The position numbers and the translations under genes were made by a program. From Minisyncoccota bacterium (lineage in GTDB: Bacteria; Patescibacteriota; Minisyncoccia; Phycocordibacterales; UBA6065), in contig DASZXC010000008.1 of NCBI GenBank assembly GCA_035546035.1, positions 5,202 through 69,201 on the forward strand: a stretch of 64,000 nt of DNA, in the 5' to 3' direction. Within the stretch, counting starts at the first letter, position 1; every line of letters begins with the position of its first letter. The notes beneath the pieces are model-generated. The model made no database searches, was not told the DNA's origin, and saw nothing but the letters and a program-made list of their open reading frames with translations. Positions 21,579-37,341 of the stretch are shown here, piece by piece.

Positions 21579-21590
21579 AGAAATGAGCCT

Positions 21591-22718
21591 TTAGGTCTTA
21601 GGCTGCTTTTTGGTGCGGCCTCGCTCCATATCGTCTATAAGCTCGACGAGAAGGGTCGAAGCCGGGACAGAGAGGATGATACCAAGGAATCCAGCGAGCT
21701 TGTAGCCGACGAGGAGCGATATGATGACGAGGATCGGATGGACGCCCACGATCTTCTTCACGACGAGAGGATATATGAGATGATTTTCGAACTGATGGAC
21801 GATCAGATACAGGCCTGCGACGATGAGGGCCGACGACGTCCCCCCATCGTTATACGACGCTGCTACCGCAGGGACGGCGGCAAGTATCGGGCCGAAGAGA
21901 GGGATCATCTCGAGCGCGGCCGCAAGAACGGCGAAGAGGAGCGCGTTCTTGACGCCAAGGACGAGAAGACCGAGATACACCAGAATGCCGACCAGAAGCG
22001 CGAGCACGATCTGACCCTGCATCCAGAGGCCGATCTTGGTACGGACCCTCCTCCAGAGGTTTATGGCATACGATTCGTCCGGATCAGGGATTATGACGCG
22101 CATCAATTTTTCAACGCCGTCTTCCTGGACGGCGAGATAGAACGAGAGCACGACGATGAGGATGAACGACAGCACGCCGCCGAACACCGAGCTCGCCGAA
22201 TGCACGAATCCTGCGGAGACCGAGCTTATAGCTTCATCGATGGACTGGAGAACGCCCTGGATGGAGTATTCGTCCGGCTGGACTCCGGTAGCGGTGATAA
22301 GGAGCTTATTCTGGGCCGTTGTCTGGACGCCATGGGAGATATTCGCTGCGACCACAGAAGTAGGCTCGTTCGCGGGATTGCCGAGAGGATTCCAAAGGGA
22401 CGAAGATTCGATGTATTGCGGCACCGAGCTCAAGAATTCCGACGTATCCTCGAGAAGCCGAGGGATAACGGTATAGAACGCGCTGACGACGAGGGCCGCG
22501 ACGGCTCCATAGATAATAAGCGCCGAAAAGATGCGCGGGATCTTCTTGTCCATGAGCCAGTGGATGCCCGGCTCGATCGCTGACGCGATGACGACTGCCG
22601 TCAAGACGACGAGGATGATGTCTTTGAGGGCGAACATCGCTATCGTGAGGAGCGCGAGAAGTATTGCCCTGGCTATGGTGCCGGTCGTTATTTCGATCCT
22701 CGTTCCCGGATTCTTCAT
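21591..22718 (-). CDS. AI-2E family transporter (PerM/UPF0118-like permease)
   Basis: 375-aa polytopic membrane protein with AI-2E-like topology and motifs. Confidence 0.65.
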   Translation of the reverse strand: MKNPGTRIEITTGTIARAILLALLTIAMFALKDIILVVLTAVVIASAIEPGIHWLMDKKIPRIFSALIIYGAVAALVVSAFYTVIPRLLEDTSEFLSSVPQYIESSSLWNPLGNPANEPTSVVAANISHGVQTTAQNKLLITATGVQPDEYSIQGVLQSIDEAISSVSAGFVHSASSVFGGVLSFILIVVLSFYLAVQEDGVEKLMRVIIPDPDESYAINLWRRVRTKIGLWMQGQIVLALLVGILVYLGLLVLGVKNALLFAVLAAALEMIPLFGPILAAVPAVAASYNDGGTSSALIVAGLYLIVHQFENHLIYPLVVKKIVGVHPILVIISLLVGYKLAGFLGIILSVPASTLLVELIDDMERGRTKKQPKT

Positions 22719-22730
22719 GACGTAATGATA

Positions 22731-23999
22731 CTACGATACGGCCTTGATAACAGCCTCTCTGTCTATTCCTTTTCCTATCGCCGCGACAGTGAGCCTGTCC
22801 TTGTCAAAGACGACCTTTGCGACGCGCATAATGTCTTCGGCCGTTATCTTGTTCGCGATCGCCTCAAATTCTTCGGGAGTGAGTATCTCGCCGTCATATG
22901 CTTCCTGGTCGCCACAATATGACGCCACGTCGTCAGAGGTTTCGAGCGACATCAATCGGTGGGCACGGGTGAATTCTTTGACCTTATCGAGCTCGTCCTT
23001 AGTAATCGGCTCGTTTTTGAGCTTTTCCGTCTCCGCGACGATGGCAGCGACTATCTCCGGGACACGAGCGTGCGTCGTGCCCGTCGTGATAGCGAAGAAG
23101 CCGAAGCTGGTATGAAGCGCCTGCGCGGCAGATATGTAGTATCCCGATCCCATCTCATCGCGCAGGCGCATGAAGAGGCGCGAGCTCATGCCGCTCTTGA
23201 GGATATTCTTTATGATACGGGCTATGTCACGGTCGGGATGCTTCCTGTCGAACGTCCTCCAGACCATGACGATATGCGCCTGATCGGTGTCTTTGTCCAC
23301 GAAGACAGATTCGGGCGCCTTCTGGTCTTTGTTCATCGTCAGGAATTCCGGTCGCGGCTTTTCGGACGAAAGGCTGGAGAAGCTCTCAGTCGCCCATGCG
23401 AGCATATCGGATTCGTTGACGCCTCCGGCGATGGTCACGACGACGTTCGGGGCTGTATACTGCGAAGTCCTGTATGCGACGAGCGCCTCGCGCGTGATGG
23501 CCTGTACGCTCTCTTTAGTTCCCAAGATATCGCGCTCGGCAGGCTGGCCTTTGAACATATGCTCGGCGACGGCGCGGCCGATCTTTTCCTGCGGATCGTC
23601 CTTGTACATGTCTATCTCGCCCATGACGACGCCCTTCTCTACCTCGATCTCCTTTTCAGGGAAGGTCGAGTTCTTGAATATGTCGGCGACGATGTCGGCA
23701 ATGCGGCTGAAATGCCTGGTATCGGCCTTGGCCCAGTATCCCGTCACCTCCTGGGACGTATAGGCATTGTAGACGGCTCCGATGGAATCGAGCTCCGTCG
23801 TTATCATGCGTGCCGACGGGCGTTTGACCGTGCCTTTGAAGCACATATGCTCGAGAAAATGAGAGAGGCCCGCCTGATCGGGAAGCTCGTAGAACGAGCC
23901 CGTATTCACGGAAACCATCACCGTGACGGTCGGATTGTCTTTCATCGGAGCCGTGACGACCCTGACTCCGTTCGGCAGTATGGTTTTCTTGAATAGCAT
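22731..23999 (-). CDS. M16-family zinc peptidase (insulinase/pitrilysin-like)
   Basis: 422 aa with the inverted zinc motif HFLEHMCFKGT near the N-terminus. Confidence 0.8.
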   Translation of the reverse strand: MLFKKTILPNGVRVVTAPMKDNPTVTVMVSVNTGSFYELPDQAGLSHFLEHMCFKGTVKRPSARMITTELDSIGAVYNAYTSQEVTGYWAKADTRHFSRIADIVADIFKNSTFPEKEIEVEKGVVMGEIDMYKDDPQEKIGRAVAEHMFKGQPAERDILGTKESVQAITREALVAYRTSQYTAPNVVVTIAGGVNESDMLAWATESFSSLSSEKPRPEFLTMNKDQKAPESVFVDKDTDQAHIVMVWRTFDRKHPDRDIARIIKNILKSGMSSRLFMRLRDEMGSGYYISAAQALHTSFGFFAITTGTTHARVPEIVAAIVAETEKLKNEPITKDELDKVKEFTRAHRLMSLETSDDVASYCGDQEAYDGEILTPEEFEAIANKITAEDIMRVAKVVFDKDRLTVAAIGKGIDREAVIKAVS

Positions 24000-24022
24000 G
24001 CGCCTAGTGTATAGGCGAACGG

Positions 24023-25372
24023 CTATTTATTCAATTTCTGGGCGAGATACGAGACGAGGTCCTTGAGGGCGATCTTCTCCTGATTGCCCGTGTCGCGGTC
24101 GCGGATTGTGAGAGGACTGCCGTCCTTTTCGATGGTATCGAAATCGACCGTGACGCAGAACGGCGTGCCGATCTCGTCCTGGCGGCGGTACCTCTTGCCT
24201 ATCGAACCGGCTTCGTCGTACTCGACAGCGCCGAATTCGGTGCGGAGGACCTTGTAAATTTCGCGCGCCTTTTCCGTGAGGGCTTCCTTGTTTTTAAGGA
24301 GCGGGAATACGGCGACTTTGACCGGAGCGACGTTCGGGGAAAGCTTCAGATAGACGCGCTTCTCGCCGCCGAGCTCGTCTTCGCGGTATGCGTCGGCGAG
24401 GATGGCGAGGATGGTCCGATCGACGCCGAACGAAGGCTCGATGACGTGCGGCACGAAGCGAACCTTCGCCTCTTCATCGAAATACGAGAGGTCTACGTTC
24501 GACATGGCGGCATGGGCCTTCAAATCGAAATCGGTGCGGTATGCGAGGCCGTAGAGCTCTTTCCTGCCGAACGGATAGTCGTATTCGAAATCGATCGTGC
24601 GCTTGGAATAGTGAGCCAAAGAATCAGCCGGCACTTCGAGCTCGTGGACCTTTTCCTTCGAAAGGCCGACGTCGTCCGTGAACGCGTGGACCTGTTCGAC
24701 GAAATGCTCGAACGTCGGCTTCCAATCCTTCGGGTCGACGAAATACTCGATCTCCATCTGTTCAAATTCGCGGACGCGGAATATGAAATCTCGCGGAGCG
24801 ATCTCGTTTCGGAACGCCTTGCCTATCTGCGCCATGCCGAACGGAAGCTTCGGGTGAAAGGTGTCTATGACGTTTTTGAAATTGACGAACATGCCCTGCG
24901 CCGTCTCCGGGCGGAGGTACGAGACCGCTGCTTCGTCTTCAGTAGCGCCGACGTAGGTCTTGAACATCATGTTGAACTGCTTTTCCGCGCCCAATTTGCC
25001 GCCGCATTCAGGGCATAGGCTCTTGGCTCGATTCTCTTCAGGGAGCTGATCGGCGCGGAAACGCCTCTTGCATTTCGAGCATTCGACGAGAGGGTCCGAG
25101 AATCCCGCGACATGTCCCGACGCCTTCCATGCCGTCTGATTCATAAGGATTGCAGCGTCCATGCCGTACATGTCTTCCCTGTCGGTGACGAAGCGCTTCC
25201 ACCAGAGGTTTTTCACGTTGTTCTTCAGGGCGACGCCGAGAGGGCCGTAGTCCCAGGTACCGGCCAGGCCGCCGTATATCTCAGAGCCCTGGAATATATA
25301 TCCGCGCCTCTTTGCGAGAGAGATGATGCTCTCCATTACCTGATTCGTCTGCTCTTTTTTCTTAGTTGCCAT
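24023..25372 (-). CDS. glyQS: Glycyl-tRNA synthetase (class II, alpha2 type)
   Basis: 449 aa. Its beginning (ESIISLAKRRGYIFQGSEIYGGLAGTWDYGPLG) is characteristic of GlyRS. Confidence 0.9.
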   Translation of the reverse strand: MATKKKEQTNQVMESIISLAKRRGYIFQGSEIYGGLAGTWDYGPLGVALKNNVKNLWWKRFVTDREDMYGMDAAILMNQTAWKASGHVAGFSDPLVECSKCKRRFRADQLPEENRAKSLCPECGGKLGAEKQFNMMFKTYVGATEDEAAVSYLRPETAQGMFVNFKNVIDTFHPKLPFGMAQIGKAFRNEIAPRDFIFRVREFEQMEIEYFVDPKDWKPTFEHFVEQVHAFTDDVGLSKEKVHELEVPADSLAHYSKRTIDFEYDYPFGRKELYGLAYRTDFDLKAHAAMSNVDLSYFDEEAKVRFVPHVIEPSFGVDRTILAILADAYREDELGGEKRVYLKLSPNVAPVKVAVFPLLKNKEALTEKAREIYKVLRTEFGAVEYDEAGSIGKRYRRQDEIGTPFCVTVDFDTIEKDGSPLTIRDRDTGNQEKIALKDLVSYLAQKLNK

Positions 25373-25385
25373 TGTGATTTCCTGA

Positions 25386-27305
25386 CTATTTTTGCACCGT
25401 CTCGTCGCCGTTCTTGTAGAAGAGGTCGCTCGTTATCCTGGTCGAAAGGTCAGGGCTCGTATTCTTAAGGCTCGAGCTCGTGAATACGTCCGTACCCGTA
25501 ATCGCTTGCTGAAGTATGAGCGTAGGCACCATGCCTGACTGATTCGCCGACGGGCGAAGCGATATCTGGAACGCCACCTGCTTTGCCCCCGATCCGACAT
25601 CGGCGTTTCGCGGCACATCGCCCACATCCCAGGTTATGGTGTCGGCCTGGTCGTCATAGCTGATATTGGCGTCTGCGGGGCTCACCGTACCCGTCCAGGT
25701 CACATAGGGAGGCAATACGGCCGTTACCTTCGCTCCCGTGATGGTATTCGAAGTATTCGTTACTGTCCAGATAACGGTATAGGTCGTCGGCTGGTCTACG
25801 CGCGGCGGTACAGGGCCGCTGTTACTGATGGGACCCTGGGAATGCACGGCGCGAGCAGAAAGGGAGAGGTTCGAGACAAGCCTGATCGCGCGCGAAACGG
25901 CAGTGTTCACGGACTGCGGGGCGCCAGTCTCGTCCACGCGGCTGCCCTGCGCCGACACAGAGATCGTGATGCGAGGATCGGACGTAGATTGGCCGAGCGA
26001 CGGCAAAAGCGACGAGACGGTAAAGCTTACCCTGCCGTCTGCGCCCGGAGCTATGGTCGTAAGGCTACCCGCCCTTCCCGCTTCCCAGATGACCGAATCA
26101 GTGAGCGAATCATAATAGCCGCCGTCGCTCACGGTCACGGAATTGCGGTCGAGCACCGGACCGGAAAGCTTAGCGACGATGCGGGCATTGGTTATCTGGC
26201 TCGCGCTGTTATTCGTCCACAGCACGTCGGCATGAACGGTGCGGCCTGCGGCCGAAGCGATATCGGCGCGATTGCCGTCGAGAGCAAGATCGACGCCGAG
26301 GAACGGCTTTTCGATGATGAACGTGTGGTCCTGGGTGACGATCGTCGTCGCTATCTCGCGCTCGTTCGTCGCGCTCTGGATGCCGACATCGGCATGGACG
26401 GCTTTTTCTTCCCCGTCCGTTCCCGAAGCGGTCGCGCGAAGCGTGATGACGCGCTTGCTGCCCGGAGCAAGGTCGCCGATGCGCCACGTATTGTCGCCGT
26501 ACGCGGCGGCAGGATTCGACGAGACGACGGAGAATCCGAACGGATAGTCGAGGGAGAGCAAGAGATCCTTGACCGGGGATGCCGTATTCGAGGAAACGGT
26601 TATGGTCATGTCGAACGACTCGCCGCCAAGCACCTTGTCGAGCGTATCTATGGCGACGACGATCGGAGAGGAAGAAATAGTGACATGATATACCTTCTCC
26701 TTGAAGAAGATCGCGTTCGATCCCGCGGTCCGGTATTCGGCGGTGAATTTGATGTCTTTGACATCGCCTTCCTGGCCATAGAGGAGGGCAGAAAGGCTCT
26801 TCTGGGCGACCGACTGGGAATCTACGTCTCCCATGGATACGCGCGTCTGGGTCAGGTCTTTCGAAGGGTCAGCGGGATCTTTGGTGCCGTCAGGATATTC
26901 GGCGATGAGGTCTACGAGCTGGATCGCTGTCTGGTTCTTGTTCGCGACGGTGACGCCCAGACGGAGCTCCTCCCCTCCGGAAACGGTCGCCGGACCCTCG
27001 ACGAGGATGTCTACGTTGTCCACCGATACGAAATTCCCTCCGGAAAGGAAGGTGTAGGCCGCTATGATAAGAGCGGCGAAAAGAAAGAGCGCCGAGCAGA
27101 CGAAGACTATCTTGTAGGCATAGCGGCGCTCGGAAGTGAGCGTCGGGACTTCGGCCGAATGGTCTTCAGGTCGATCCCATGATTCAGGGACCGCTTCGCC
27201 GCCCGCATGTATATCGTGGCGCGGAGCCTCCGTCTGGGAGACATTGCGCGAATAGAGGCCTTTCTTGAGCCGGTCGAGCGGGCTTTTCTTGTCGGATTCG
27301 AACAT
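25386..27305 (-). CDS. Large membrane-anchored extracellular protein with repeated beta-rich (DUF11/CARDB-like) domains
   Basis: 639 aa. A TM helix lies near aa 60-85. Ser/Thr/Val-rich repeated segments follow. Confidence 0.5.
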   Translation of the reverse strand: MFESDKKSPLDRLKKGLYSRNVSQTEAPRHDIHAGGEAVPESWDRPEDHSAEVPTLTSERRYAYKIVFVCSALFLFAALIIAAYTFLSGGNFVSVDNVDILVEGPATVSGGEELRLGVTVANKNQTAIQLVDLIAEYPDGTKDPADPSKDLTQTRVSMGDVDSQSVAQKSLSALLYGQEGDVKDIKFTAEYRTAGSNAIFFKEKVYHVTISSSPIVVAIDTLDKVLGGESFDMTITVSSNTASPVKDLLLSLDYPFGFSVVSSNPAAAYGDNTWRIGDLAPGSKRVITLRATASGTDGEEKAVHADVGIQSATNEREIATTIVTQDHTFIIEKPFLGVDLALDGNRADIASAAGRTVHADVLWTNNSASQITNARIVAKLSGPVLDRNSVTVSDGGYYDSLTDSVIWEAGRAGSLTTIAPGADGRVSFTVSSLLPSLGQSTSDPRITISVSAQGSRVDETGAPQSVNTAVSRAIRLVSNLSLSARAVHSQGPISNSGPVPPRVDQPTTYTVIWTVTNTSNTITGAKVTAVLPPYVTWTGTVSPADANISYDDQADTITWDVGDVPRNADVGSGAKQVAFQISLRPSANQSGMVPTLILQQAITGTDVFTSSSLKNTSPDLSTRITSDLFYKNGDETVQK

Positions 27306-27325
27306 GGATTGAATTATAGCACTCG

Positions 27326-27838
27326 TTAGAGCTGCGTTTCCTGGAGTGCTTTATTTATAGCCTGAATGACCTCCCTTTCGGCCTTGCCTTCGAGAGCGGC
27401 GAGGTCGAGATAGCCGAGAGAGGAAAGTATGCCGGAAAGAACATTGGTTTCTTTAGGCGGAACGTCGGAAGTAAGGGCGATAAGAGCCTGAAAGAGGGCA
27501 TCGTTGCGTTCTTGGCCTTGGACGAGGCGTCGGACGAGCGACAGCACCCTCGCGCGAGCGCGGAACGAATCGGCGTCTTTTCGCGAGATGTCGAGGTTTT
27601 CGGCGCCCGTAAGCCTCCAGACCTCCTTTCCTTTTACGAGCGAAAGGGTACAAAAGGCGTAGTCGTCAAGGTTATAGCGCAGTTTCGACTGCGCGAGGCG
27701 CACTCCCTGGGCCTTGGCGCGTATGAGGCCGAAGTCTTCGGTATAGACCGAATATATCTTGGACGCTTCGCCGGAAGGACCGCTCCCGACGATGAAACCC
27801 CTCGTGCTGTAGACCGCGTATGACATGACAGGCTGCAA
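27326..27838 (-). CDS. recO: RecO-like DNA repair protein (short form)
   Basis: 170 aa with an N-terminal OB-like region resembling RecO. It directly abuts the ileS stop. Confidence 0.4.
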   Translation of the reverse strand: MQPVMSYAVYSTRGFIVGSGPSGEASKIYSVYTEDFGLIRAKAQGVRLAQSKLRYNLDDYAFCTLSLVKGKEVWRLTGAENLDISRKDADSFRARARVLSLVRRLVQGQERNDALFQALIALTSDVPPKETNVLSGILSSLGYLDLAALEGKAEREVIQAINKALQETQL

Positions 27839-30800
27839 TTAGCGGCGCAAAGCTATGCGAAACGAGTATTCTTCCACCTTCATTTCTTCAGCCTGCGGGA
27901 GATGGGCATGCTCTATGCCCGTGACGAGCGTTATCCTCTTTATATCGTGAAGGAACGCATGCGCGAGCTCTTTGCCCTTCTCATCCGAATCAAGGGCAAG
28001 GGAGACCTTGTCGTCCACGGTCAGATTCTCTTTCTTGCGAAGCTCCTGGACCGAGCGTATGAGGTCTCGGATCACGCCCTCCTTGCGGAGCCCTTCAGTC
28101 ACGTCCGTATCGAGAGCCGTTTCAGCGGCTATCGTATGGTCCACGCCGACGGCTTTGACGTTCACTTCGTCTTTGATGAGGTCGATGAGGTCGGCGCCCA
28201 GCGAGGCGTTCTTGATGACCAGCTTGGCGAGAGGCTGGCGGACCTTGATGTTCGCCTTCGATCGTTCCTGGAGAGCGATCGTCACGATCTTCCGCGTCTC
28301 TTCCATCGCCTTCACGATTTTTCCATCGACGGAGGCTTCTGCCGGCCAATCTGCGAGGTGTACGCTTTCGGGATCGTTCGAACGCCTGATACGGCTGAAG
28401 AGATAGTCGGCGTAGAAAGGAATGAAGGGCGCGGCTATTTTCGCGAATTCGGCGAGGACGAATCGGGTCGTGGAAAGAGCCGCCTCTTTGTCGGCGCGGT
28501 TGTCAGATTTGAATCGGTCGCGCGATCGGCGCAGGTACCACGTCGAAAGGTCGTCTACGAACGACATCAACGGTCGCGCGGCCTTATCGAGCTGATAGAA
28601 ATCGAGATATTCGGTCATCTCGTTTCTTGTCTCATTGAGGCGCGCGCGTATCCAGAGGTCAAGAACGCTCTTTGAATCGGTTCTCGATGCCTTTTCGCTC
28701 TCTCCCCTGTTCGCGTACATCTCATAGAAAGCGAGGACGTTGTCGAGGCGCTGGATGAGCTTCTTGGACACTTCGTCTACGCCTTTTTCAGAGAAGCAGA
28801 GGTCCTGAGCGGCCACGACCGGAGAGGAAAGCAGATAATAGCGGAGAGAGTCGGCGCCATATTTGCCGATGACTTCGAGCGGGTCGGGATAGTTATTGAG
28901 GCGCTTGGACATCTTCTCGCCGTCTTCAGCCAAGATGATGCCGTTCACGACGACGTTCTTGTACGGGCTCTTTCCGAAGAGACCGACGCCGAGGACCATC
29001 ATGGAATAGAACCAGCCGCGAGTCTGGTCTAGGCCTTCGGCGATGAAATCGGCGGGATAGCCCTTTACGCCGCCCAAAAGACCTCCAAGCCTGCCGTTCG
29101 GATCGAAATGCTCCAAAGCCTTGCCGCGATAGTTCGATTCGCCGTACGGCATCGAGCCCGATTCGAACCAACAGTCGAATACTTCCGCTACGCGGACAAG
29201 CTTTTCGCCGTCCGGCGCGACGCATTCGACCGTATCTATATACGGCCTATGGAGGTCGAGATCGAATCCCCTGTTATGCGGCAAGCGAACAAAGTCGAAC
29301 GGATGGCATTCGCCCGTTTTTTGGAAATAGCGGCGCTCGTCGTGGAGGATCTTGTCCTCGGACGCGGTCTCGCCTATCCCATGAAGGATCGTGTTCAGAG
29401 GCGAGCCGTGGCTCACGATGAGGATCTTCTTGCCCGAATATTTTCTATCTATATCGAACATCGCTTCGAAGACGCGCTTCTTCAAATCCACCGGCGTTTC
29501 CATACCCGGGAAGAGCCCGTGCGTGCGGACGTGACGATCCGTCTCGGCCCACAGCTTGCCTTCCCTGTCGGGACCGACGTTGTATTCGCGGAGGCGGACG
29601 TCATAGACGATCTCGTTCTCCGGTATGCCGCAGGCATCGGCTATCATGCGCGCCGTCTCTTTGGTGCGCTCGAAATCGGACGCGACGATGACGTCGACGC
29701 CTTGCGCGGCGATCTTTTTGGCGGCTTCAGCGATCTGCTGTCTGCCCTTTTCGGTGAGGCCGTAATTTTTGGAGAGACTTATGTTCGAATTCGAAACGCC
29801 GAGAGCGTTCGCCTTCGATTCGCCGTGGCGGATGAGCGTATATGAATTGCCTGATCGCTGTATGAGCTTCGCCAGATCGGATATACCCCCGATCGGATAG
29901 AGCTTGCCCGAATCGACTCCCTTCCAGACAGGGATAGGGGCGCCCCAGAAGCGCGAGCGCGATATGGCCCAGTCGCGGGCGCCTTCGAGCCATTTGCCGA
30001 AGCGCCCGTCGCGGATATCGTCCGGCGTCCAAGAGACTTTTTTGTTCGCAGCGACGAGCTTGTCCTTGAACAACGTGACGCGGACGAACCACGATGACGC
30101 AGCGTAATTGAGGAGCGGCGTGTCGCAGCGCCAGCAGTGGGGGTACGAGTGGACGATCTTCTTCTTGTCGAAGAGAAGGCCGTGATGAGCGAGCCATTTG
30201 ACAATCTCGATATCGGTCTTCTGATGACCGTCCTTTTCATCAGACTTGGGCTTGACCGGCTGACCCGCGAAATCGGCGACTTCCGGCTTGAACGTTCCGT
30301 TCATAGCCACGTGCTGGATGAAAGGCAGGTCGTTCGCCTGGCCGAGCTTCATGTCATCGTCGCCGAACGCCGGCGCTATATGCACGATGCCGGTACCGTC
30401 TTCGGTCGTGACGAAATCGGCGGCATATACCTTGAATCCGTTCTTTTCATCCTTGAGAGAGCCGTCGAGATAGTATGAGAACGCCGGCTCGTATCCGTCG
30501 CCGACGAGCTCGCGGCCCTTTATGACGGAGACGAGCGCGTGCTCCTTGCCCGCGAATACGTCGGCGACGCGGTCGCGCGCGACGATATATGTCGCATTCT
30601 CGTACGATACGCGGGCGTAATCGATATCAGCGCCTACGGCCAAGGCGACGTTTCCGGGAAGCGTCCACGGCGTCGTGGTCCAGGCGATGAAGTATTCATT
30701 CGGAGGAGTCCCCTTCCTCTTCATTTTGACGAATACGGATATGTCGGTGATGTCCTTGTATCCCTGATTCACCTCGAAATTGGCGAGCGTCGTCTCGCAT

Positions 30801-31363
30801 CGCGGACATATCTGCATAGACTTGAAGCCTTCGTAGACGAGACCTTTGTCGAAGAGCGTCTTGAACGCCCACCAGACGGACTGGGTGTATGCCGCGTCCA
30901 TGGTGCGATAGTCGTCATCCATGTCTACCCAGCGGCCGATGCGGGGTATGATCTTTCTCCAGTCATGGGCGTATCGAAGGACGCTCTCTTCCGCCACGGC
31001 ATTGAATCTCTCCATGCCGTAATCGACGATGTCTTTTCGCGATCTGAGGCCGAGCTCCTTTTCGACCAAGTTCTCTACCGGCAGGCCGTGACAGTCCCAG
31101 CCCCAGCGCCGCGCGACATGATACCCGCGCATAGTCTTGTAGCGCGGAACGGCGTCTTTGATGAACGAAGCCAGCATGTGGCCGTAATGTGGAAGGCCGT
31201 TCGCGAACGGCGGGCCGTCATAAAAGACGAATTCCTTGCCTTTTTTGTCGAGAGATTTCTGGAAGATCTCCTTTTCGTTCCAAAAAGAAAGTATCTTTTC
31301 CTCTATTTCGACCAGTTTGGTCTTCGGCTTGGTTTCCGGTTGGGTTTTGGGAGCGTCTGCCAT
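27839..31363 (-). CDS. ileS: Isoleucyl-tRNA synthetase (type 2) with an inserted histidine-phosphatase-like domain
   Basis: 1174 aa. PHYGH, WAISRSRFWGAPIPVW and KMSKR motifs are present. Confidence 0.9.
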   Translation of the reverse strand: MADAPKTQPETKPKTKLVEIEEKILSFWNEKEIFQKSLDKKGKEFVFYDGPPFANGLPHYGHMLASFIKDAVPRYKTMRGYHVARRWGWDCHGLPVENLVEKELGLRSRKDIVDYGMERFNAVAEESVLRYAHDWRKIIPRIGRWVDMDDDYRTMDAAYTQSVWWAFKTLFDKGLVYEGFKSMQICPRCETTLANFEVNQGYKDITDISVFVKMKRKGTPPNEYFIAWTTTPWTLPGNVALAVGADIDYARVSYENATYIVARDRVADVFAGKEHALVSVIKGRELVGDGYEPAFSYYLDGSLKDEKNGFKVYAADFVTTEDGTGIVHIAPAFGDDDMKLGQANDLPFIQHVAMNGTFKPEVADFAGQPVKPKSDEKDGHQKTDIEIVKWLAHHGLLFDKKKIVHSYPHCWRCDTPLLNYAASSWFVRVTLFKDKLVAANKKVSWTPDDIRDGRFGKWLEGARDWAISRSRFWGAPIPVWKGVDSGKLYPIGGISDLAKLIQRSGNSYTLIRHGESKANALGVSNSNISLSKNYGLTEKGRQQIAEAAKKIAAQGVDVIVASDFERTKETARMIADACGIPENEIVYDVRLREYNVGPDREGKLWAETDRHVRTHGLFPGMETPVDLKKRVFEAMFDIDRKYSGKKILIVSHGSPLNTILHGIGETASEDKILHDERRYFQKTGECHPFDFVRLPHNRGFDLDLHRPYIDTVECVAPDGEKLVRVAEVFDCWFESGSMPYGESNYRGKALEHFDPNGRLGGLLGGVKGYPADFIAEGLDQTRGWFYSMMVLGVGLFGKSPYKNVVVNGIILAEDGEKMSKRLNNYPDPLEVIGKYGADSLRYYLLSSPVVAAQDLCFSEKGVDEVSKKLIQRLDNVLAFYEMYANRGESEKASRTDSKSVLDLWIRARLNETRNEMTEYLDFYQLDKAARPLMSFVDDLSTWYLRRSRDRFKSDNRADKEAALSTTRFVLAEFAKIAAPFIPFYADYLFSRIRRSNDPESVHLADWPAEASVDGKIVKAMEETRKIVTIALQERSKANIKVRQPLAKLVIKNASLGADLIDLIKDEVNVKAVGVDHTIAAETALDTDVTEGLRKEGVIRDLIRSVQELRKKENLTVDDKVSLALDSDEKGKELAHAFLHDIKRITLVTGIEHAHLPQAEEMKVEEYSFRIALRR

Positions 31364-31417
31364 ACGTGGCCTTCAGAGTATCAATTTTCAGGGATTTTTG
31401 AAAGAAAAAGGTCCCGC

Positions 31418-31969
31418 CTATGCGGAACCCTTGTATCGGACCATTATCGCGTCCGAGAGAAGCAGCTTATCGTCGAGAGGAGTGCTTATTTTTCGGAGGA
31501 ACAGCTTCCCTCTTTCGAGCGACAAGACTGCCGCGAACGCTCCTGACTGATTGAGCTGGTCGCGGCCATAAGCGACGATCCTGTGAAAGCGGAGGAACCT
31601 CCTGAGCGCGGCGCGATTGGCGAGATAGACGCCGAGGAGCTCGCGAACCGTCGCGTATTCCCGCGGAGACCTGATCGGGACGACGATCTCGTCGGTGCCG
31701 GGCATGGCCGTGAAGAGCCTATAGCGCGAATACTCGGAATATCCTCCCGATTTCTCGAAATCCTGGCGGATCCAGGCCTTAAGATATTCATCCGGATCTT
31801 CGACGCCGGACTGATCGAGGAGCGCCGGAAAATTATCGGTTCTTGGATTGACGCTCTGGTATTCCCGGGCGGCTTTCGCCTTTAAAGCTCTATCGAGCAG
31901 CTCTCCGACGTTATGAAAGGAATCTTGAGCGGAAGAATGTAAAGAGATCATATTCCCTTCCATTCTCAT
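31418..31969 (-). CDS. Hypothetical protein
   Basis: 183-aa ORF between argS and ileS on the same strand. No family recognised. Confidence 0.4.
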   Translation of the reverse strand: MRMEGNMISLHSSAQDSFHNVGELLDRALKAKAAREYQSVNPRTDNFPALLDQSGVEDPDEYLKAWIRQDFEKSGGYSEYSRYRLFTAMPGTDEIVVPIRSPREYATVRELLGVYLANRAALRRFLRFHRIVAYGRDQLNQSGAFAAVLSLERGKLFLRKISTPLDDKLLLSDAIMVRYKGSA

Positions 31970-31989
31970 CTTGAAGGGATAAAAGTCAA

Positions 31990-33711
31990 CTACATCCTCT
32001 CCGGCACCTTCATGCCGAGGAGCTTCGCGCCGTTCACGAGCACGATGCGTACGGCCTGGGTCAGAGCGACCTTGTACGGCGATTCGCCGTCATCTTTGCC
32101 GACGATAGGCACGTTCGCATACCAGGAATTGAATACCGACGAGAGCTCGATGAGATACGTCGCGATGTGGTGCGGCGCCTCTTCGCGCGCCGATCGGCCG
32201 ACGACTTCAGGGAATCGGGCAAGCGCCTTTTCGAGAGGACCGACAATGACTCCCTTTCTTTCGATCCTCGGTTTCACGCCCTCTTTCTTCGCTTTATCCA
32301 AAACGGATTGAGCGCGGACGGCGGTATAGAGGAGATACGGGCCCGAATCGCCTTCGAACGATATGGACTTATCAAAATCATAGATGATATCCGACGACGT
32401 GACCTGTCGCAGGATCGAATATTTGATGGCGGCGACGGCGACGGCCTCGGTCGCCTCGGCCTTTTGCTTGTCGGTCATTTCGCGGGCCGCGAGCTTTTCC
32501 GTGACCATCTTTTCGACGTCGGCGATGAGCGACTCGCCCGTGATGACGTTGCCCTTTCGCGACGACATCTTGCCTTCGGCGAAGCGGAGCATGCCGTGGG
32601 CGATGTGCTTGGTTACCCGGGCGGCTTCAGGCTCGATGATCTCGAGCGCCTTCAGGACGACGCGGAAATAATCGCTCTGCTCGTTCGCGGTGATGATGAT
32701 AGACTCGTCAGGCCTGACCTTCTTCCATTTTTTGGTATTGAGGCCGAGCTCTTTCGTTTCATACGTCGGAATGCCCTGCGAGTTTATGAATACGCGGGTG
32801 TGGAGCTTTGGATCGTATCTCTCGCCCTTAAATACCGTCGCGCCGTCAGATTTTTCGAATACGCCTTTGCCCAGCCACTCTTCGACGAGCGCCACGCCGT
32901 CATGCGCGACCTCGGATTCGAGATAGAAATAGTCGAATTTGGTGCCGAGCTTTTCATATATGCCGTCGAAATGATCGAGGCTCCATTTCTTGCCGAGCTT
33001 ATAGAGCTTCATGAGCTTGCGCTCCTTTCCTTCGAAGACTTTCTTGTTGATCGCTTCGATCACCTCTTTTGCCGCGGGATCGTCTTCGAACGCGCGCGAG
33101 CCTTCGACGTATGAAGCGCCGAGGAATGCGATGCGCTCCTCTAGAGGAGCGCGCTTCGATGGCATACTCGCCTCGTTCTTCTGCATCGCCCAAAGAGCCT
33201 TGGCTACGTGCATGCCGAAATCGCCCTGATAGCACATGCGGCGGATCTTGGCGCCCTGCGACGCAGTGAGGCGCGCGATCGATTCGCCGATAGCGTTCGA
33301 CATGAGGTGACCGATATGGAATTCCTTGAACGGATTCGGATCGGTGTATTCGATGAGCACTTTCCTGCCTCTCCATTCGTTCGAATTGCCGTAGAGATCT
33401 TTACGCTTGAGTATCGTTTCGAGCTCTTTCGTATAGAAACTCGACGCCAAATAGAAATTGACGAAGCCGGGACCGGCGACGTCTATCCTTTCGACCGATT
33501 CGATGTGCTGGGCGCGCAAAGCCTCTGCGAGCTTCATGCCGAGCTCGCGCGGATTCTGTTTGGCCTGCTTCGCGAGAGCCATCGCCACGTTCGTCGCAAA
33601 ATCGCCGTTCGCGGCGTCGGCAGGATGCTCGATGACGATCTCGCCGGCGGACATGCCGAGAGATTTCAGAGCGCCCTCTATTCCCGTCCGTATCTTAGTC
33701 TCTATATCCAT
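31990..33711 (-). CDS. argS: Arginyl-tRNA synthetase
   Basis: 573 aa. ArgRS N-terminal domain, HIGH (FHIGHL) and a KMSK-like region. Confidence 0.9.
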   Translation of the reverse strand: MDIETKIRTGIEGALKSLGMSAGEIVIEHPADAANGDFATNVAMALAKQAKQNPRELGMKLAEALRAQHIESVERIDVAGPGFVNFYLASSFYTKELETILKRKDLYGNSNEWRGRKVLIEYTDPNPFKEFHIGHLMSNAIGESIARLTASQGAKIRRMCYQGDFGMHVAKALWAMQKNEASMPSKRAPLEERIAFLGASYVEGSRAFEDDPAAKEVIEAINKKVFEGKERKLMKLYKLGKKWSLDHFDGIYEKLGTKFDYFYLESEVAHDGVALVEEWLGKGVFEKSDGATVFKGERYDPKLHTRVFINSQGIPTYETKELGLNTKKWKKVRPDESIIITANEQSDYFRVVLKALEIIEPEAARVTKHIAHGMLRFAEGKMSSRKGNVITGESLIADVEKMVTEKLAAREMTDKQKAEATEAVAVAAIKYSILRQVTSSDIIYDFDKSISFEGDSGPYLLYTAVRAQSVLDKAKKEGVKPRIERKGVIVGPLEKALARFPEVVGRSAREEAPHHIATYLIELSSVFNSWYANVPIVGKDDGESPYKVALTQAVRIVLVNGAKLLGMKVPERM

Positions 33712-36045: not shown

Positions 36046-37341
36046 ATGAGAGAAATCATCATCGTAGACGACCTTTCACCGGAGCCTGGAGCGATGGTGC
36101 AAGCGCTTTATTCCCGCGATCCCCGCAGCGTCAAAGACCATTTGGTCCAAGTCCGCGAGAAAGGCGCCGAGAAATTCATGTCATCGTATTACGTCGGCTA
36201 TGGGCACAAGTCCATCGGCGACTGCGGCACGACGTCTATATTCGCCGAGAACGTTTCGATGCTCGTCGCCAAGGCTATCCAGGATTGGCCTTTGTATAAC
36301 GGCCAGGAAGCCTCGACGCGATATCTCGATATGGCTGCGCAAGAAGTCGTCGATCCTGTCGGCACCCCTGACAGCAAGGCTATCCAGGACGAATGGATGC
36401 GATTCTATCGCTATGCCCTCGACAAGCTCGTGCCTGTCCTGAAACAGCGCTTCCCTATCCAGCCCGAACAGAAGGAGACAGTATATGAGAAAGCGGTCAA
36501 AGCTCGCGCATTCGACATCGCCCGCGGCTTCCTGCCTGCCGGCGTAACGACGTACGCCGCATGGCACACCAACCTCCGCCAGGCATACGATCACATCAAA
36601 GAGATGCGCCACCATCCATTGGCCGAAGTGCGCGAGACTGCCGCTTTGATCCATGACGAGCTCAAGAAAAAATATGCGTCGAGCTTCTCCCACAAGGAAT
36701 ATCCGATGGAAGAAGCATATGTCGAGGAGAGCATGAGGCAATTCGCGTTCTTCGACGATGCGGAAGCTGTCAAAGGGTTCTCATATGACGCGCGCATGCT
36801 CGACCTGAACGGCCTCGCAAAGCACCAGAAGCTCCTCGCCGAGAGGCCTGCGAAGGCAGAATTGCATCAGCGCATGCGCCAGTACGGCAATATAGTATTC
36901 GCTTTCCCTCTCGATTTCGGCTCGTACCGCGACCTTCAGCGCCACCGAAGCTGCATCCAGGAGATGCCCCTTCTCTCTACCCGTCACGGCTTCTATCCGT
37001 GGTATCTCGAACAGCTCCCTGAAGACCTGCGCGGCGAAGCCGTAAAGGTATTAAAGGAACAGGAAGATCGCATCGCGAGACTCGATGCGACGCCCGAGAT
37101 CAGGCAATATTACATCGCCATGGGATACACCGTTGCCGTAAAGATGACCGCGCCGCTTCCCGCAGCCGTCTATACCGCCGAATTACGCTCGTCGGACACC
37201 GTACACCCGACGCTTCGCGTCCAAGCGCAGAGGATGGGTGACGCGATCAAGGAAGCCGTTCCCGGCATCGCCATGCATCACGATCTGACGCCTGGCACCT
37301 GGAACATCAAGCGCGGCAATCACGATATCGTGAAGAAATAA
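36046..37341 (+). CDS. thyX: FAD-dependent thymidylate synthase ThyX-like, tandem duplication of two ThyX-like domains
   Basis: 431 aa. Domain 1 (about aa 1-212) has the ThyX-like ...NGQEASTRY block, but DWP sits where RHR is expected. Domain 2 (about aa 213-431) has RHR (aa 298-300, DLQRHRSCIQ) with a divergent downstream motif. Confidence 0.55.
   Translation: MREIIIVDDLSPEPGAMVQALYSRDPRSVKDHLVQVREKGAEKFMSSYYVGYGHKSIGDCGTTSIFAENVSMLVAKAIQDWPLYNGQEASTRYLDMAAQEVVDPVGTPDSKAIQDEWMRFYRYALDKLVPVLKQRFPIQPEQKETVYEKAVKARAFDIARGFLPAGVTTYAAWHTNLRQAYDHIKEMRHHPLAEVRETAALIHDELKKKYASSFSHKEYPMEEAYVEESMRQFAFFDDAEAVKGFSYDARMLDLNGLAKHQKLLAERPAKAELHQRMRQYGNIVFAFPLDFGSYRDLQRHRSCIQEMPLLSTRHGFYPWYLEQLPEDLRGEAVKVLKEQEDRIARLDATPEIRQYYIAMGYTVAVKMTAPLPAAVYTAELRSSDTVHPTLRVQAQRMGDAIKEAVPGIAMHHDLTPGTWNIKRGNHDIVKK

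What the first reader, a model, noticed from the sequence alone, without database searches (positions are those of the whole stretch)
29279..29911. Histidine-phosphatase (PGAM-like) catalytic domain inserted in-frame inside isoleucyl-tRNA synthetase
The 1174-aa IleRS (PHYGH at aa 57-62; KMSKR further downstream) carries about 210 extra residues. They sit between the conserved WAISRSRFWGAPIPVW block (about aa 465-480) and the DLDLHRPYID...DCWFESGSMP block (about aa 700 onward). The extra residues read as a complete histidine-phosphatase fold. They include LIRHGESKANALG (catalytic RHG), TEKGRQQ, ASDFERTKETARMI and a second His motif ILIVSHGSPL. The insert is in frame with no stop codon, and both catalytic histidines are retained. 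I know of no aaRS with an embedded phosphatase-fold enzyme domain. It is not an intein: there is no Cys/Ser at the N-junction and no HN-Cys/Ser/Thr at the C-junction. A phosphatase in IleRS could in principle act on aminoacyl-adenylate, on alarmones such as Ap4A, or on the tRNA 3' end, but that is speculation.
Basis: partly seen in the sequence, partly recalled or inferred. Interest (0 to 1): 0.85.

Follow-up and report, generated by a model that had tools for sequence, protein, structure and literature searches.

The report
Active phosphatase nested inside isoleucyl-tRNA synthetase
An essential translation enzyme (isoleucyl-tRNA synthetase) of a tiny Paceibacteria/CPR bacterium carries a complete, apparently active histidine-phosphatase enzyme spliced into one of its surface loops; this arrangement is shared by hundreds of related bacteria, replaces a separate phosphatase gene that sits just upstream of ileS in sister lineages, and was not described in any paper I could find.

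Summary
ORF 27839-31363 (-) encodes a 1174-aa type-2 IleRS with all synthetic and editing motifs. About 197 extra residues (aa ~501-697, nt 29273-29863) lie inside the CP3 subdomain. They form a complete branch-1 histidine phosphatase (Pfam E=1e-27; AF2 pLDDT 91; closest PhoE/PspA/CobC, not dPGM mutases).

It is not a chimera. All 120 best full-length homologs (53-100% identity) share the architecture. The catalytic set R512/H513/N519/R566/E593/H652 is identical in 210 of 238 embedded copies.

New findings:
- In 79 of 80 species-representative loci, the phosphatase is either nested in ileS (60) or a separate cistron wedged between argS and ileS (19). It is never both.
- Other lineages carry it at three other IleRS sites or as 2-4 copies, all catalytically intact, in unrelated neighbourhoods.
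- Rare fusions to ArgRS and to TsaC/Sua5 also exist.

Best reading: a catalytically active accessory phosphatase, physically coupled to adenylate-forming tRNA enzymes, that acts on a small phosphorylated ligand. AMP-like or PPi is inferred, not shown. A neutral "hitch-hiker" fusion remains a serious rival. I found no paper describing it. I rate it a new variant of multidomain aaRS, interest 0.7.

The parts
27839..31363 (-). ileS ORF: 1174-aa type-2 isoleucyl-tRNA synthetase with nested phosphatase (end coordinate includes the stop codon)
   Evidence: ORF. TIGR00392 ileS scores 839 bits against a cutoff of 621; best PDB match is 8c8v, Priestia IleRS2, E=2.9e-213; no internal stops.
31178..31192 (-). 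HIGH signature (PHYGH, aa 58-62)
   Evidence: P58, H59 and G61 are invariant in 52 homologs.
30134..30763 (-). CP1 editing domain (aa ~201-410), including WTTTPWT (30662-30682) and APAFGDDD (30353-30376)
   Evidence: The editing motifs are invariant, which implies that proofreading is retained.
29942..29980 (-). CP2-CP3 linker ARDWAISRSRFWG (aa 462-474). It corresponds to ScIleRS 453-ARDWNVSRNRYWG-465, which lines the reveromycin/tRNA CCA-end pocket.
   Evidence: PMC7955072.
29864..29941 (-). N-terminal remnant of the CP3 subdomain (aa 475-500, ...PIPVWKGVDSGKLYPIGGISDLAKL). The CxxC zinc knuckle seen in relatives has been lost.
   Evidence: alignment with insert-free and insert-bearing relatives. 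CP3 is defined in PMC7191050 and PMC7955072.
29273..29863 (-). Inserted segment (aa ~501-697): a whole histidine-phosphatase protein plus the C-terminal LPHN linker
   Evidence: ordinary IleRS2 joins the flanks with about 7-15 residues. Stand-alone homologs of 185-205 aa match it end to end.
29372..29839 (-). Pfam His_Phos_1 (PF00300) core, aa 509-664
   Evidence: E=9.6e-28. AF2 pLDDT 91, pTM 0.89. Foldseek TM 0.74-0.77 to PhoE 1h2e/1ebb.
29822..29830 (-). RHG motif: R512, H513 (predicted phospho-accepting nucleophile) and G514
   Evidence: Invariant. The RH(G/A) pattern is present in essentially all 238 embedded copies.
29807..29809 (-). N519 (phosphate-pocket Asn of RHGxxxxN)
29666..29668 (-). 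R566 (second phosphate-binding Arg, in SDFERTKETA)
   Evidence: Invariant.
29585..29587 (-). E593 (predicted general acid/base)
   Evidence: Invariant. It is E, or rarely D.
29408..29410 (-). H652 (second catalytic His, in IVSHG)
   Evidence: Invariant.
29273..29284 (-). LPHN linker motif, specific to embedded copies (LP[H/Y/F]N). Stand-alone proteins end just before it.
29234..29257 (-). DLHRPYID: the IleRS (CP3) sequence resumes here
28901..28915 (-). KMSKS signature (KMSKR, aa 817-821)
   Evidence: K817 and K820 are invariant.
28226..28660 (-). Anticodon-binding domain (Anticodon_1, aa 902-1046)
   Evidence: E=4.4e-29.
27845..28192 (-). C-terminal DUF5915 domain typical of type-2 IleRS (aa 1058-1173)
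   Evidence: E=1.4e-17.
31990..33711 (-). argS (ArgRS), the upstream member of the conserved argS-(His_Phos)-ileS-recO block
   Evidence: Synteny.
27326..27838 (-). recO-like gene immediately downstream of ileS (conserved block)
   Evidence: Synteny.

Best explanation
The gene encodes a two-enzyme polypeptide. The host is a fully equipped type-2 IleRS, with its HIGH and KMSKR signatures, CP1 editing site, anticodon-binding domain and C-terminal domain all present. A complete PhoE/PspA/CobC-like branch-1 histidine phosphatase is nested in its peripheral, structurally variable CP3 subdomain.

The insert is the in-frame version of a gene that sister Paceibacteria keep as a separate cistron, packed between argS and ileS. 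The two states replace each other.

The phosphatase is expected to work by the standard two-step mechanism. H513 attacks a phosphoryl group held by R512, N519, R566 and H652. E593 protonates the leaving group. The phospho-histidine intermediate is then hydrolysed.

I infer that it is a genuine catalytic accessory of adenylate-forming tRNA enzymes, kept at 1:1 or higher stoichiometry and in physical proximity. Its likely substrate is a small phosphorylated ligand that these enzymes share. The most plausible candidates are a nucleotide-type monoester such as 5'-AMP, or PPi.

What is shown: the architecture, the fold, the intact catalytic set, the clade-wide conservation, the mutually exclusive operon and embedded states, and the recurrence at other sites and in other hosts. 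What is inferred: that the domain is active, that its function is coupled to the host, and the identity of the substrate.
For: Identity and fold.

Real and ancient: all 120 best homologs, down to 53% identity and from many assemblies, share the architecture. Dozens of 50%-identity clusters appear in the exhaustive search.

Selection on catalysis:
- The insert evolves faster than the IleRS core (35-40% versus 60-80% identity), yet R512, H513, G514, R566, E593 and H652 are invariant in 52 homologs and N519 is conserved in at least 90%; the core identity comparison is.
- 210 of 238 embedded copies have the exact RHGNREH pattern and the rest differ conservatively.
- Every extra copy is also intact.

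Rosetta-stone and synteny evidence:
- Of the 80 loci from GTDB species-representative genomes, 60 are embedded, 19 are stand-alone directly between argS and ileS, none has both, and none lies elsewhere.
- The stand-alone genes are separate ORFs whose stop codon abuts or overlaps the ileS start.

Recurrence independent of that synteny:
- Insertions occur at sites B, C and D, and as tandem or quadruple copies.
- These lie on contigs up to 1.06 Mb, in lineages labelled Peregrinibacteria/Peribacteria, with unrelated neighbours.

Other hosts: an ArgRS C-terminal fusion, in a block from which ileS is missing, and a Sua5/TsaC fusion. All three hosts make an adenylate and release PPi and then AMP (established enzymology).

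Small-molecule type: the domain keeps the cap region, and its nearest relatives are small-molecule phosphatases (PhoE 1.5e-30, PspA, CobC).

Site: CP3 follows the linker that lines the CCA-end pocket.
Against: - No activity or substrate has been measured. AMP and PPi are guesses based on what the hosts have in common.
- I know of no branch-1 histidine phosphatase established as a pyrophosphatase (own knowledge). Hydrolysing AMP would waste nucleotides in an organism that lives by salvage.
- The ArgRS fusion can be explained trivially by loss of an overlapping stop codon between neighbours. The TsaC fusion rests on a single 3.7-kb contig.
- Multiple copies per polypeptide fit a dosage effect for an independent enzyme at least as well as they fit action in cis.
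- Gene order in this whole block is conserved in Paceibacteria anyway, so adjacency alone is weak evidence.
- No coordinates or PAE were available from the model, so the geometry between the two active sites is unknown.
Confidence: 0.5

Rival explanations
1. Neutral or merely co-expressed hitch-hiker. The phosphatase is an independent housekeeping metabolite phosphatase, for example for a sugar phosphate, phosphoserine or a cofactor precursor. Its gene happens to lie in the argS-ileS operon and has been captured by neighbouring ORFs. IleRS serves only as an expression vehicle, and the permissive CP3 loop tolerates the insertion.
For: - The closest characterised relatives act on metabolites.
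- CP3 is the most variable and peripheral part of IleRS.
- The insert evolves faster than the host.
- A fusion to the other neighbour, ArgRS, also occurs.
- Tandem copies suggest simple dosage.
- The whole block is syntenic in this clade.
Against: - Nested in-frame insertion is mechanistically hard, yet it occurred at four or more different IleRS sites, including in lineages where ileS has unrelated neighbours.
- No simple N-terminal read-through fusion to IleRS is seen, although the stop and start codons abut.
- None of the 79 loci that could be resolved has the gene away from ileS.
- The third host, TsaC, is again an adenylate-forming enzyme of the tRNA system.
Confidence: 0.3
2. Repair enzyme acting on a macromolecule in cis. 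The tethered phosphatase would remove a phosphate either from the tRNA (a 3'/2'-phosphorylated acceptor end left after nuclease damage) or from the synthetase itself (for example a phosphorylated KMSKS-loop serine, the site that HipA/HipT-type toxin kinases target in GltX and TrpS; own knowledge).
For: - The insertion sites (CP3 next to the CCA pocket, the second Rossmann half, and the region just after the KMSKS domain) surround the catalytic body and the tRNA-binding face.
- Tethering makes most sense for a substrate bound to the enzyme.
- Members of the histidine-phosphatase superfamily include protein phosphatases such as SixA, PGAM5 and Sts (own knowledge).
Against: - The domain keeps a PhoE-like cap typical of small-molecule phosphatases, unlike the open SixA-type site (SixA scores only 22 bits).
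- TsaC does not bind tRNA.
- No kinase or nuclease partner was seen in the neighbourhoods examined.
- Multiple copies are not explained.
Confidence: 0.1
3. Embedded glycolytic cofactor-dependent phosphoglycerate mutase (dPGM), which would supply a missing glycolytic step.
For: The best NCBIfam names are dPGM_arch and GpmB. The superfamily contains dPGMs.
Against: - All dPGM models fall far below their cutoffs (65 versus 225 bits; TIGR01258 28 versus 81.7).
- dPGM structures align only over the N-terminal half in the profile search.
- The size is about 190 aa, against about 230-250 aa for dPGM.
- By my recollection, dPGM-specific motifs (RHGxxxWN, the RR pair, HGNS) are absent from the sequence.
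Confidence: 0.04
4. Non-catalytic structural expansion of CP3 (a scaffold or extra tRNA-binding surface), or an artefact such as a chimeric assembly, a frameshift that hides a separate gene, or an intein.
For: CP3 varies in topology among IleRS enzymes. The window protein has lost the CP3 zinc-knuckle cysteines, so the insert could compensate structurally.
Against: - The catalytic residues are invariant across hundreds of copies while the rest of the domain diverges.
- The same in-frame architecture appears in over 100 independent assemblies.
- There is no compositional break and no internal stop.
- No intein family is hit and the junctions are not intein-like.
Confidence: 0.03

Closest known systems
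Type-2 (eukaryote-like) bacterial IleRS, e.g. Priestia megaterium IleRS2 (PDB 8c8v) and Thermus thermophilus IleRS (1ile)
   Same: The full set of IleRS domains and motifs is present. The query aligns over residues 18-481 and 700-1076 at E=2.9e-213. The C-terminal DUF5915 domain is present. The TIGR00392 score is above its cutoff.
   Different: About 195 extra residues replace a roughly 25-residue loop of CP3 (chain residues 458-484 in 8c8v). The CP3 zinc-knuckle cysteines present in relatives and in T. thermophilus IleRS are lost here.
PhoE/YhfR broad-specificity phosphatase of Geobacillus stearothermophilus (PDB 1h2e/1ebb), plus PspA phosphoserine phosphatase (4ij5) and CobC alpha-ribazole phosphatase (6nru/6e4b)
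   Same: Same compact fold of about 200 aa with a cap, and the same catalytic R-H...N...R...E...H set. The subfamily profile gives E=1.5e-30 for PhoE, 2e-28 for PspA and 2e-25 for CobC. Foldseek TM is 0.67-0.77.
   Different: Identity is only 20-27%. Scores are below every equivalog cutoff. This copy is nested in another enzyme, or encoded in an aaRS operon. Its substrate is unknown.
NCBIfam NF040702, 'isoleucine--tRNA ligase, N-acetyltransferase domain-containing' (ileS_w_GNAT)
   Same: It is a precedent for an IleRS that carries an additional enzyme-fold domain (the model is listed).
   Different: The extra domain is different (GNAT, not a phosphatase). The window protein scores 305 bits against a cutoff of 1999, so it is not a member. 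I found no paper on that family either.
CP1 editing domains of class Ia aaRS as nested catalytic inserts (e.g. the LeuRS editing domain, PF13603; PMC13114784)
   Same: A second hydrolytic active site is nested inside the Rossmann fold of a class Ia synthetase, and the nested arrangement is conserved.
   Different: CP1 is universal and hydrolyses mis-acylated products. This insert is clade-specific, sits in CP3, has a phosphatase fold, and also exists as a free-standing gene.
Rv2228c-type bifunctional RNase H / acid phosphatase (NCBIfam NF005567)
   Same: A branch-1 histidine phosphatase is fused to a nucleic-acid enzyme. The model hits the insert at 62-67 bits.
   Different: That is a terminal fusion, not a nested one, and the partner is different. 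The score is far below the 326-bit cutoff.

Membership tests
Isoleucyl-tRNA synthetase (TIGR00392 ileS; type 2) | Whole-protein score above the curated equivalog cutoff | tested here: met
   839.4 bits against a cutoff of 621.4.
Isoleucyl-tRNA synthetase (TIGR00392 ileS; type 2) | Class I signatures HIGH and KMSKS | tested here: met
   PHYGH at aa 58-62 and KMSKR at aa 817-821. Both are conserved in 52 homologs.
Isoleucyl-tRNA synthetase (TIGR00392 ileS; type 2) | CP1 editing domain with the Thr-rich and GTG..H.AP..G..D motifs | tested here: met
   WTTTPWT at aa 228-234 and APAFGDDD at aa 330-337 are invariant. The query also matches isolated editing-domain structures (1wk8, 1udz).
Isoleucyl-tRNA synthetase (TIGR00392 ileS; type 2) | Type-2 C-terminal architecture (Anticodon_1 plus DUF5915), closest to IleRS2 and eukaryotic enzymes | tested here: met
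   the best PDB matches are 8c8v (IleRS2), yeast/Candida IleRS and 1ile. Type-1 enzymes (1ffy, 8c9e) score much lower.
Isoleucyl-tRNA synthetase (TIGR00392 ileS; type 2) | Isoleucylation of tRNA(Ile) | not testable with these tools
   This needs an enzyme assay.
Histidine phosphatase superfamily, branch 1 (Pfam PF00300) | Score above the Pfam gathering threshold | tested here: met
   97.6 bits (102.4 for the excised segment) against a cutoff of 21.7.
Histidine phosphatase superfamily, branch 1 (Pfam PF00300) | Catalytic core: RHG nucleophile His, two phosphate-binding Arg, Asn, acid/base Glu and second His | tested here: met
   R512, H513, N519, R566, E593 and H652 are all present. The pattern is identical in 210 of 238 embedded copies.
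Histidine phosphatase superfamily, branch 1 (Pfam PF00300) | Alpha/beta fold of the superfamily | tested here: met
   AF2 pLDDT 91; 276 PDB matches with E<=1e-3, all top matches are family members, and TM reaches 0.77.
Histidine phosphatase superfamily, branch 1 (Pfam PF00300) | Phosphatase activity through a phospho-histidine intermediate | not testable with these tools
   This needs biochemistry.
Cofactor-dependent phosphoglycerate mutase (dPGM; TIGR01258, NF038349 and related models) | Score above the curated cutoffs and full-length match to the mutase | tested here: not met
   65-70 bits against 225, and 28 against 81.7; dPGM structures match only positions 5-~110 of the profile.
Specific characterised phosphatases (CobC TIGR03162, PspA NF045917, SixA TIGR00249, GpmB NF002901) | Equivalog cutoff | tested here: not met
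   62-67 against 162.9, 34-41 against 350, 22 against 74.5, and 63-67 against 261.
Intein | Hint/intein splicing domain, N-terminal Cys/Ser, and C-terminal His-Asn followed by Cys/Ser/Thr | tested here: not met
   no intein, Hint or LAGLIDADG hit; the N-junction reads ...KLIQRSGNSY. The C-junction LPHN is followed by Arg and varies among relatives (LPYN/LPFN plus K, E or D).
Mupirocin-resistance IleRS MupA/MupB (NF000257/NF000258) | Exception-model cutoff | tested here: not met
   702 and 750 bits against a cutoff of 1900. This reflects general type-2 similarity only.
ileS_w_GNAT (NF040702) | Model cutoff and presence of a GNAT domain | tested here: not met
   305 bits against 1999. No acetyltransferase family is hit.

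The most novel reading that the evidence does not exclude
The phosphatase is a dedicated, previously unrecognised catalytic partner of adenylate-forming tRNA enzymes (IleRS, ArgRS, TsaC) in Patescibacteria. It would be a third active site on an aaRS that either clears a reaction product (AMP or PPi) at the source or repairs a phosphorylated tRNA end or synthetase loop. It would be important enough that evolution repeatedly welded it into IleRS at different positions and in multiple copies. That would be a new class of aaRS accessory activity and a new minimal-genome strategy.
Probability: 0.35. Interest if true: 0.85.

Novelty: new variant of a known kind. Interest (0 to 1): 0.7.

Why it matters
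Aminoacyl-tRNA synthetases are among the best-studied enzymes. Their known nested catalytic insert is the editing domain. An intact second enzyme of a different chemistry (phosphoryl transfer), nested in CP3 next to the CCA-end pocket and conserved across a large part of the Patescibacteria, is unexpected.

The comparative pattern has four parts:
- Operon-partner and nested states are mutually exclusive.
- Insertions occur at several IleRS sites.
- Some proteins carry two to four active copies.
- Fusions to ArgRS and to TsaC also exist.

This is a ready-made Rosetta-stone case that points to an unknown link between phosphate-ester hydrolysis and aminoacylation or tRNA metabolism in organisms with minimal genomes. 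It is directly testable with recombinant protein.

Two practical points follow. The insert evidently degrades automatic annotation, because PGAP names these essential genes 'class I tRNA ligase family protein' or even 'histidine phosphatase family protein'. It also supplies a natural example of a permissive domain-insertion site in IleRS for protein engineering.

Tried and rejected
- **Chimera, frameshift or recent transfer:** rejected. The ORF is continuous, there is no GC break, and the same architecture occurs in 120 of 120 top homologs.
- **Intein:** rejected.
- **dPGM mutase:** rejected on model cutoffs and partial alignment.
- **orf183 (31418-31969) as a decayed stand-alone phosphatase:** rejected. 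The HMM gives no signal even with filters off, and there is no second His_Phos anywhere in the window.
- **Short two-domain proteins on long contigs (P0021, P0032) as natural split IleRS genes:** they are fragmented gene calls of a normal embedded ileS, in assemblies where neighbouring genes are also fragmented. They are probably frameshift errors. I did not pursue this.
- **N-terminal read-through fusion in the 'stand-alone' loci:** checked and rejected. All 19 are separate ORFs.
- **Resolving internal duplication from re-acquisition of the domain:** failed. Pairwise identities are about 30-35% in all categories, and the domain distances are saturated.
- **IleRS-backbone NJ tree:** it suggests that embedded is ancestral with at least 5 switches, but support is weak (bootstrap 51 for the main clade). 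I do not rely on the number.
- **Pattern scan with the 27-sequence domain alignment:** It was replaced by a 7-sequence stand-alone cluster.
- **afdb50 fold library:** unavailable.
- it had a column-mapping bug and is superseded.
- **Literature probes:** searches found no description of the architecture and nothing on pyrophosphatase content of these bacteria.
- **Rfam and promoter/terminator scans:** they gave only tRNAs and one hairpin.
Full report
**1. The observation**

The window contains one uninterrupted minus-strand ORF, 27839-31363, of 1174 aa. It has no internal stop.
- Pfam finds tRNA-synt_1 split in two, Anticodon_1 and DUF5915. Between the two synthetase halves it finds His_Phos_1 at aa 509-664, with E=9.6e-28.
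- NCBIfam places the protein above the ileS equivalog cutoff, at 839 against 621 bits.
- GC content is continuous across the segment.

**2. Where exactly the insert sits**

The best solved relative is Priestia IleRS2 (8c8v). Query residues 18-481 and 700-1076 align to chain residues 11-458 and 484-851, so about 195 extra residues replace a roughly 25-residue loop.

I built HMMs of the host segments and ran them on the homologs. Ordinary type-2 IleRS joins the flanking segments with about 7 residues. Alignment with insert-free relatives gives the two consensus forms:
- Insert-free: WGxPLPIW-ECxxC...IGSxxEL-(8-15 aa)-DLHRPxID.
- Insert-bearing: the whole phosphatase plus an LP(H/Y/F)N linker lies between IGSxxDL and DLHRPYID.

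In this protein that corresponds to aa ~501-697.

Published IleRS structures define this region as the CP3 subdomain (CaIleRS 473-534, ScIleRS 459-526). CP3 differs in topology between IleRS enzymes. It follows the CP2-3 linker ARDWNVSRNRYWG, which helps form the reveromycin/tRNA CCA-end pocket (PMC7191050 and PMC7955072). The window protein has ARDWAISRSRFWG at aa 462-474, and it has lost the CP3 CxxC knuckles that relatives keep.

**3. What the insert is**

Modelled alone with a 40-sequence alignment, the insert folds confidently (pLDDT 91, pTM 0.89). In the full-length model both the host and the insert are well predicted, with a mean of 83 and insert blocks at 90-97.
- Foldseek's best PDB matches are compact phosphatases of about 200 aa: PspA, PhoE/YhfR (TM 0.74-0.77), CobC, mycobacterial GpgP-type hydrolases and a riboflavin-pathway phosphatase.
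- A profile of the subfamily hits PhoE at 1.5e-30, PspA at 2e-28 and CobC at 2e-25. dPGM mutases align only over the N-terminal half.
- All dPGM and specific-phosphatase NCBIfam models are far below their cutoffs.

The insert is therefore a generic PhoE-like phosphatase, not a mutase, and it is not a member of any characterised equivalog.

**4. It is real, old and under selection**

The identical protein is already in NCBI, from a 380-kb Candidatus Paceibacterota contig. All 120 best full-length hits, from 100% down to 53% identity and 1123-1226 aa long, carry PF00133+PF00300+PF08264+PF19302. They come from NCBI, JGI, ENA and Logan assemblies, with source names including Paceibacterota, Parcubacteria and Taylorbacteria.

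The insert diverges faster than the IleRS core: 35-40% against 60-80% identity in the deeper comparisons. Even so, conservation of the catalytic set is very high:
- R512, H513, G514, R566, E593 and H652 are invariant in 52 homologs. N519 is conserved in at least 90% of them.
- The set is retained in homologs whose insert is only 24-38% identical.
- 210 of 238 embedded domains have exactly RHGNREH, and the rest differ conservatively.

This pattern is what is expected of an active enzyme and not of a scaffold.

**5. The operon-partner state**

A stand-alone 191-aa homolog (P0119) lies between argS and an insert-free 916-aa ileS, followed by recO, a DUF11 protein and a class II aaRS. That is the same block as in the window.

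I scanned GTDB species representatives with a cluster of true stand-alone proteins and kept the best 80 loci. My HMM mapping of those loci gave:

| State | Loci |
|---|---|
| Nested in ileS at the CP3 site | 60 |
| Separate gene directly between argS and ileS | 19 |
| Unresolved (short contig) | 1 |
| Both states together | 0 |
| Located elsewhere | 0 |

The 19 stand-alone genes are distinct ORFs whose stop codon abuts or overlaps the ileS start. The stand-alone proteins end at ...GELRKL. That is exactly where embedded copies continue into the LPxN linker.

An NJ tree of the IleRS backbone suggests that embedded is ancestral. A nested clade holds most stand-alone cases plus a few embedded ones, including this window. 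Parsimony needs at least 5 switches, but support is weak. The domain tree is saturated. I therefore claim only that the two states interconvert and substitute for each other.

**6. Recurrence beyond this synteny**

The exhaustive HMMER search gave 6071 hits at E<=1e-3. By my HMM mapping, most of its top 150 (about 100 of the 146 new representatives) carry IleRS segments. It revealed further architectures:
- Tandem doubles at the CP3 site (P0337 type, 1468-1489 aa).
- An insert inside the second Rossmann half (site C; P0394, 1276 aa).
- Inserts at site C plus a site just before the anticodon domain (site B; P0278 type, 1419 aa).
- Inserts at site A plus site B (P0357).
- A fragment with four copies, one of them between CP1 and CP2 (P0242).

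These variants recur in independent assemblies. The P0278 type has six members on contigs up to 1.06 Mb. Some carry the source labels Peregrinibacteria or Peribacteria. Where context could be read, ileS there is not next to argS or recO. Every extra copy keeps the catalytic set.

**7. Other hosts**

Two top hits have different hosts.
- P0370 is an ArgRS with the phosphatase fused to its C-terminus. It lies in the same block (smpB, argS::HP, recO, DUF11-like, class II aaRS, M16, AI-2E), but ileS is missing from that block. This is seen in two samples.
- P0305 is a Sua5/YrdC (TsaC) phosphatase fusion on a short contig.

The phosphatase is therefore tied to this aaRS operon and to adenylate-forming tRNA enzymes, not to IleRS alone.

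**8. Interpretation**

Shown: the architecture, the fold, the intact catalytic machinery, the clade-wide conservation, the complementary operon and nested states, and the recurrence at several sites and hosts.

Inferred: the domain is an active phosphatase whose function is coupled to its hosts. The arguments for coupling are these:
- Nested in-frame insertion is hard to achieve, yet it happened at several IleRS sites and in lineages with unrelated gene neighbourhoods.
- The easy N-terminal read-through fusion is never seen.
- All three hosts share the chemistry ATP to acyl-AMP plus PPi, followed by release of AMP.

This makes a shared small ligand the most economical guess for the substrate. 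AMP is one candidate. By my recollection PhoE hydrolyses AMP among other esters, and CobC acts on a ribose-5'-phosphate. PPi is the other. I rate the whole statement 0.5.

The main rival, rated 0.3, is a co-expressed but mechanistically independent housekeeping phosphatase captured by its neighbours. The ArgRS fusion, the tandem copies and the permissive CP3 site all fit it.

Lesser rivals are repair of a phosphorylated tRNA end or KMSKS loop (0.1), an embedded dPGM (0.04), and a structural-only role or an artefact (0.03).

**9. Comparison with what is known, and novelty**

The host is an ordinary type-2 IleRS, and the guest is an ordinary PhoE-like histidine phosphatase. The combination is what is unusual.

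Precedents of the same kind exist: the CP1 editing domains as nested catalytic inserts (PMC13114784), the NCBIfam ileS_w_GNAT model, and RNase H/phosphatase fusions. I therefore classify this as a new variant of a known kind.

Nine literature probes found no description of it. The sequences themselves are public but generically annotated.

Interest is 0.7. An aaRS specialist would find it surprising, and it is directly testable, but its function is still open.

Noticed in passing
window 31418-31969 (-): A 183-aa ORF with no Pfam hit sits between argS and ileS, exactly where relatives have the stand-alone phosphatase gene. It is not a decayed His_Phos (the HMM finds nothing) and has no homolog in the 80 related loci.
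   Followed up: partly
window 31407-31432 (-): A strong terminator-like hairpin (11-bp stem, 6 GC pairs, T-rich tail) lies at the end of orf183, about 45 nt upstream of the ileS start. In this genome ileS may therefore be transcribed separately from argS. This is a consensus match only.
   Followed up: no
window 29864-29941 and 29180-29233 (-): The window's IleRS has lost both CxxC zinc-knuckle motifs of CP3 (KGVDSG and ECVAPDGEK here). Insert-free relatives, and the other insert-bearing relatives shown, retain them.
   Followed up: partly
L087/L088 7001-9070; L089 977-2140: The same phosphatase subfamily is fused to the C-terminus of ArgRS (689 aa, with ileS absent from the otherwise conserved block) and to Sua5/YrdC (TsaC, 387 aa).
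   Followed up: partly
P0242, P0278/L086 7001-11260, P0337, P0357, P0394: Some IleRS variants carry 2-4 phosphatase domains or carry the domain at other sites (the second Rossmann half, before the anticodon domain, between CP1 and CP2). Some are labelled Peregrinibacteria/Peribacteria, and all copies are catalytically intact.
   Followed up: partly
L018, L027, L036, L038, L055, L063, L082: A clade of seven stand-alone loci has 100% bootstrap support. Six of them share a visibly different IleRS subtype (WLISKK.YWGLALP...PHRPW.D...DVGNPWLDAG), and L038 is intermediate. This may be a replaced ileS that still keeps the phosphatase gene directly upstream.
   Followed up: no
L003 4337-7857; L004 4942-8016; L005: In these assemblies the embedded-type ileS is called as 4-5 short ORFs. 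In L004/L005, neighbouring genes are fragmented too. These look like frameshift or assembly errors and not natural split genes.
   Followed up: partly
window 20133-33711 (-): Four aaRS genes are clustered: MetRS (481 aa, short), a class II aaRS (449 aa), IleRS and ArgRS. They are interleaved with an AI-2E transporter, an M16 peptidase, a DUF11 surface protein and recO. This block is syntenic across Paceibacteria.
   Followed up: partly
window 36046-37341 (+): A ThyX-like ORF of 431 aa in which the Thy1 domain covers only aa 22-209. The protein is about twice the usual ThyX length, and the C-terminal half is unassigned.
   Followed up: no
window 47766-49136 and 49133-50476 (-): Two adjacent, overlapping ORFs of about 450 aa with no Pfam family at E<=1e-5.
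   Followed up: no
P0121 and relatives; P0010, P0019: Public annotation of these essential genes is degraded by the insert. NCBI names them 'class I tRNA ligase family protein' or 'histidine phosphatase family protein', and JGI names one fragment 'broad specificity phosphatase PhoE'.
   Followed up: no
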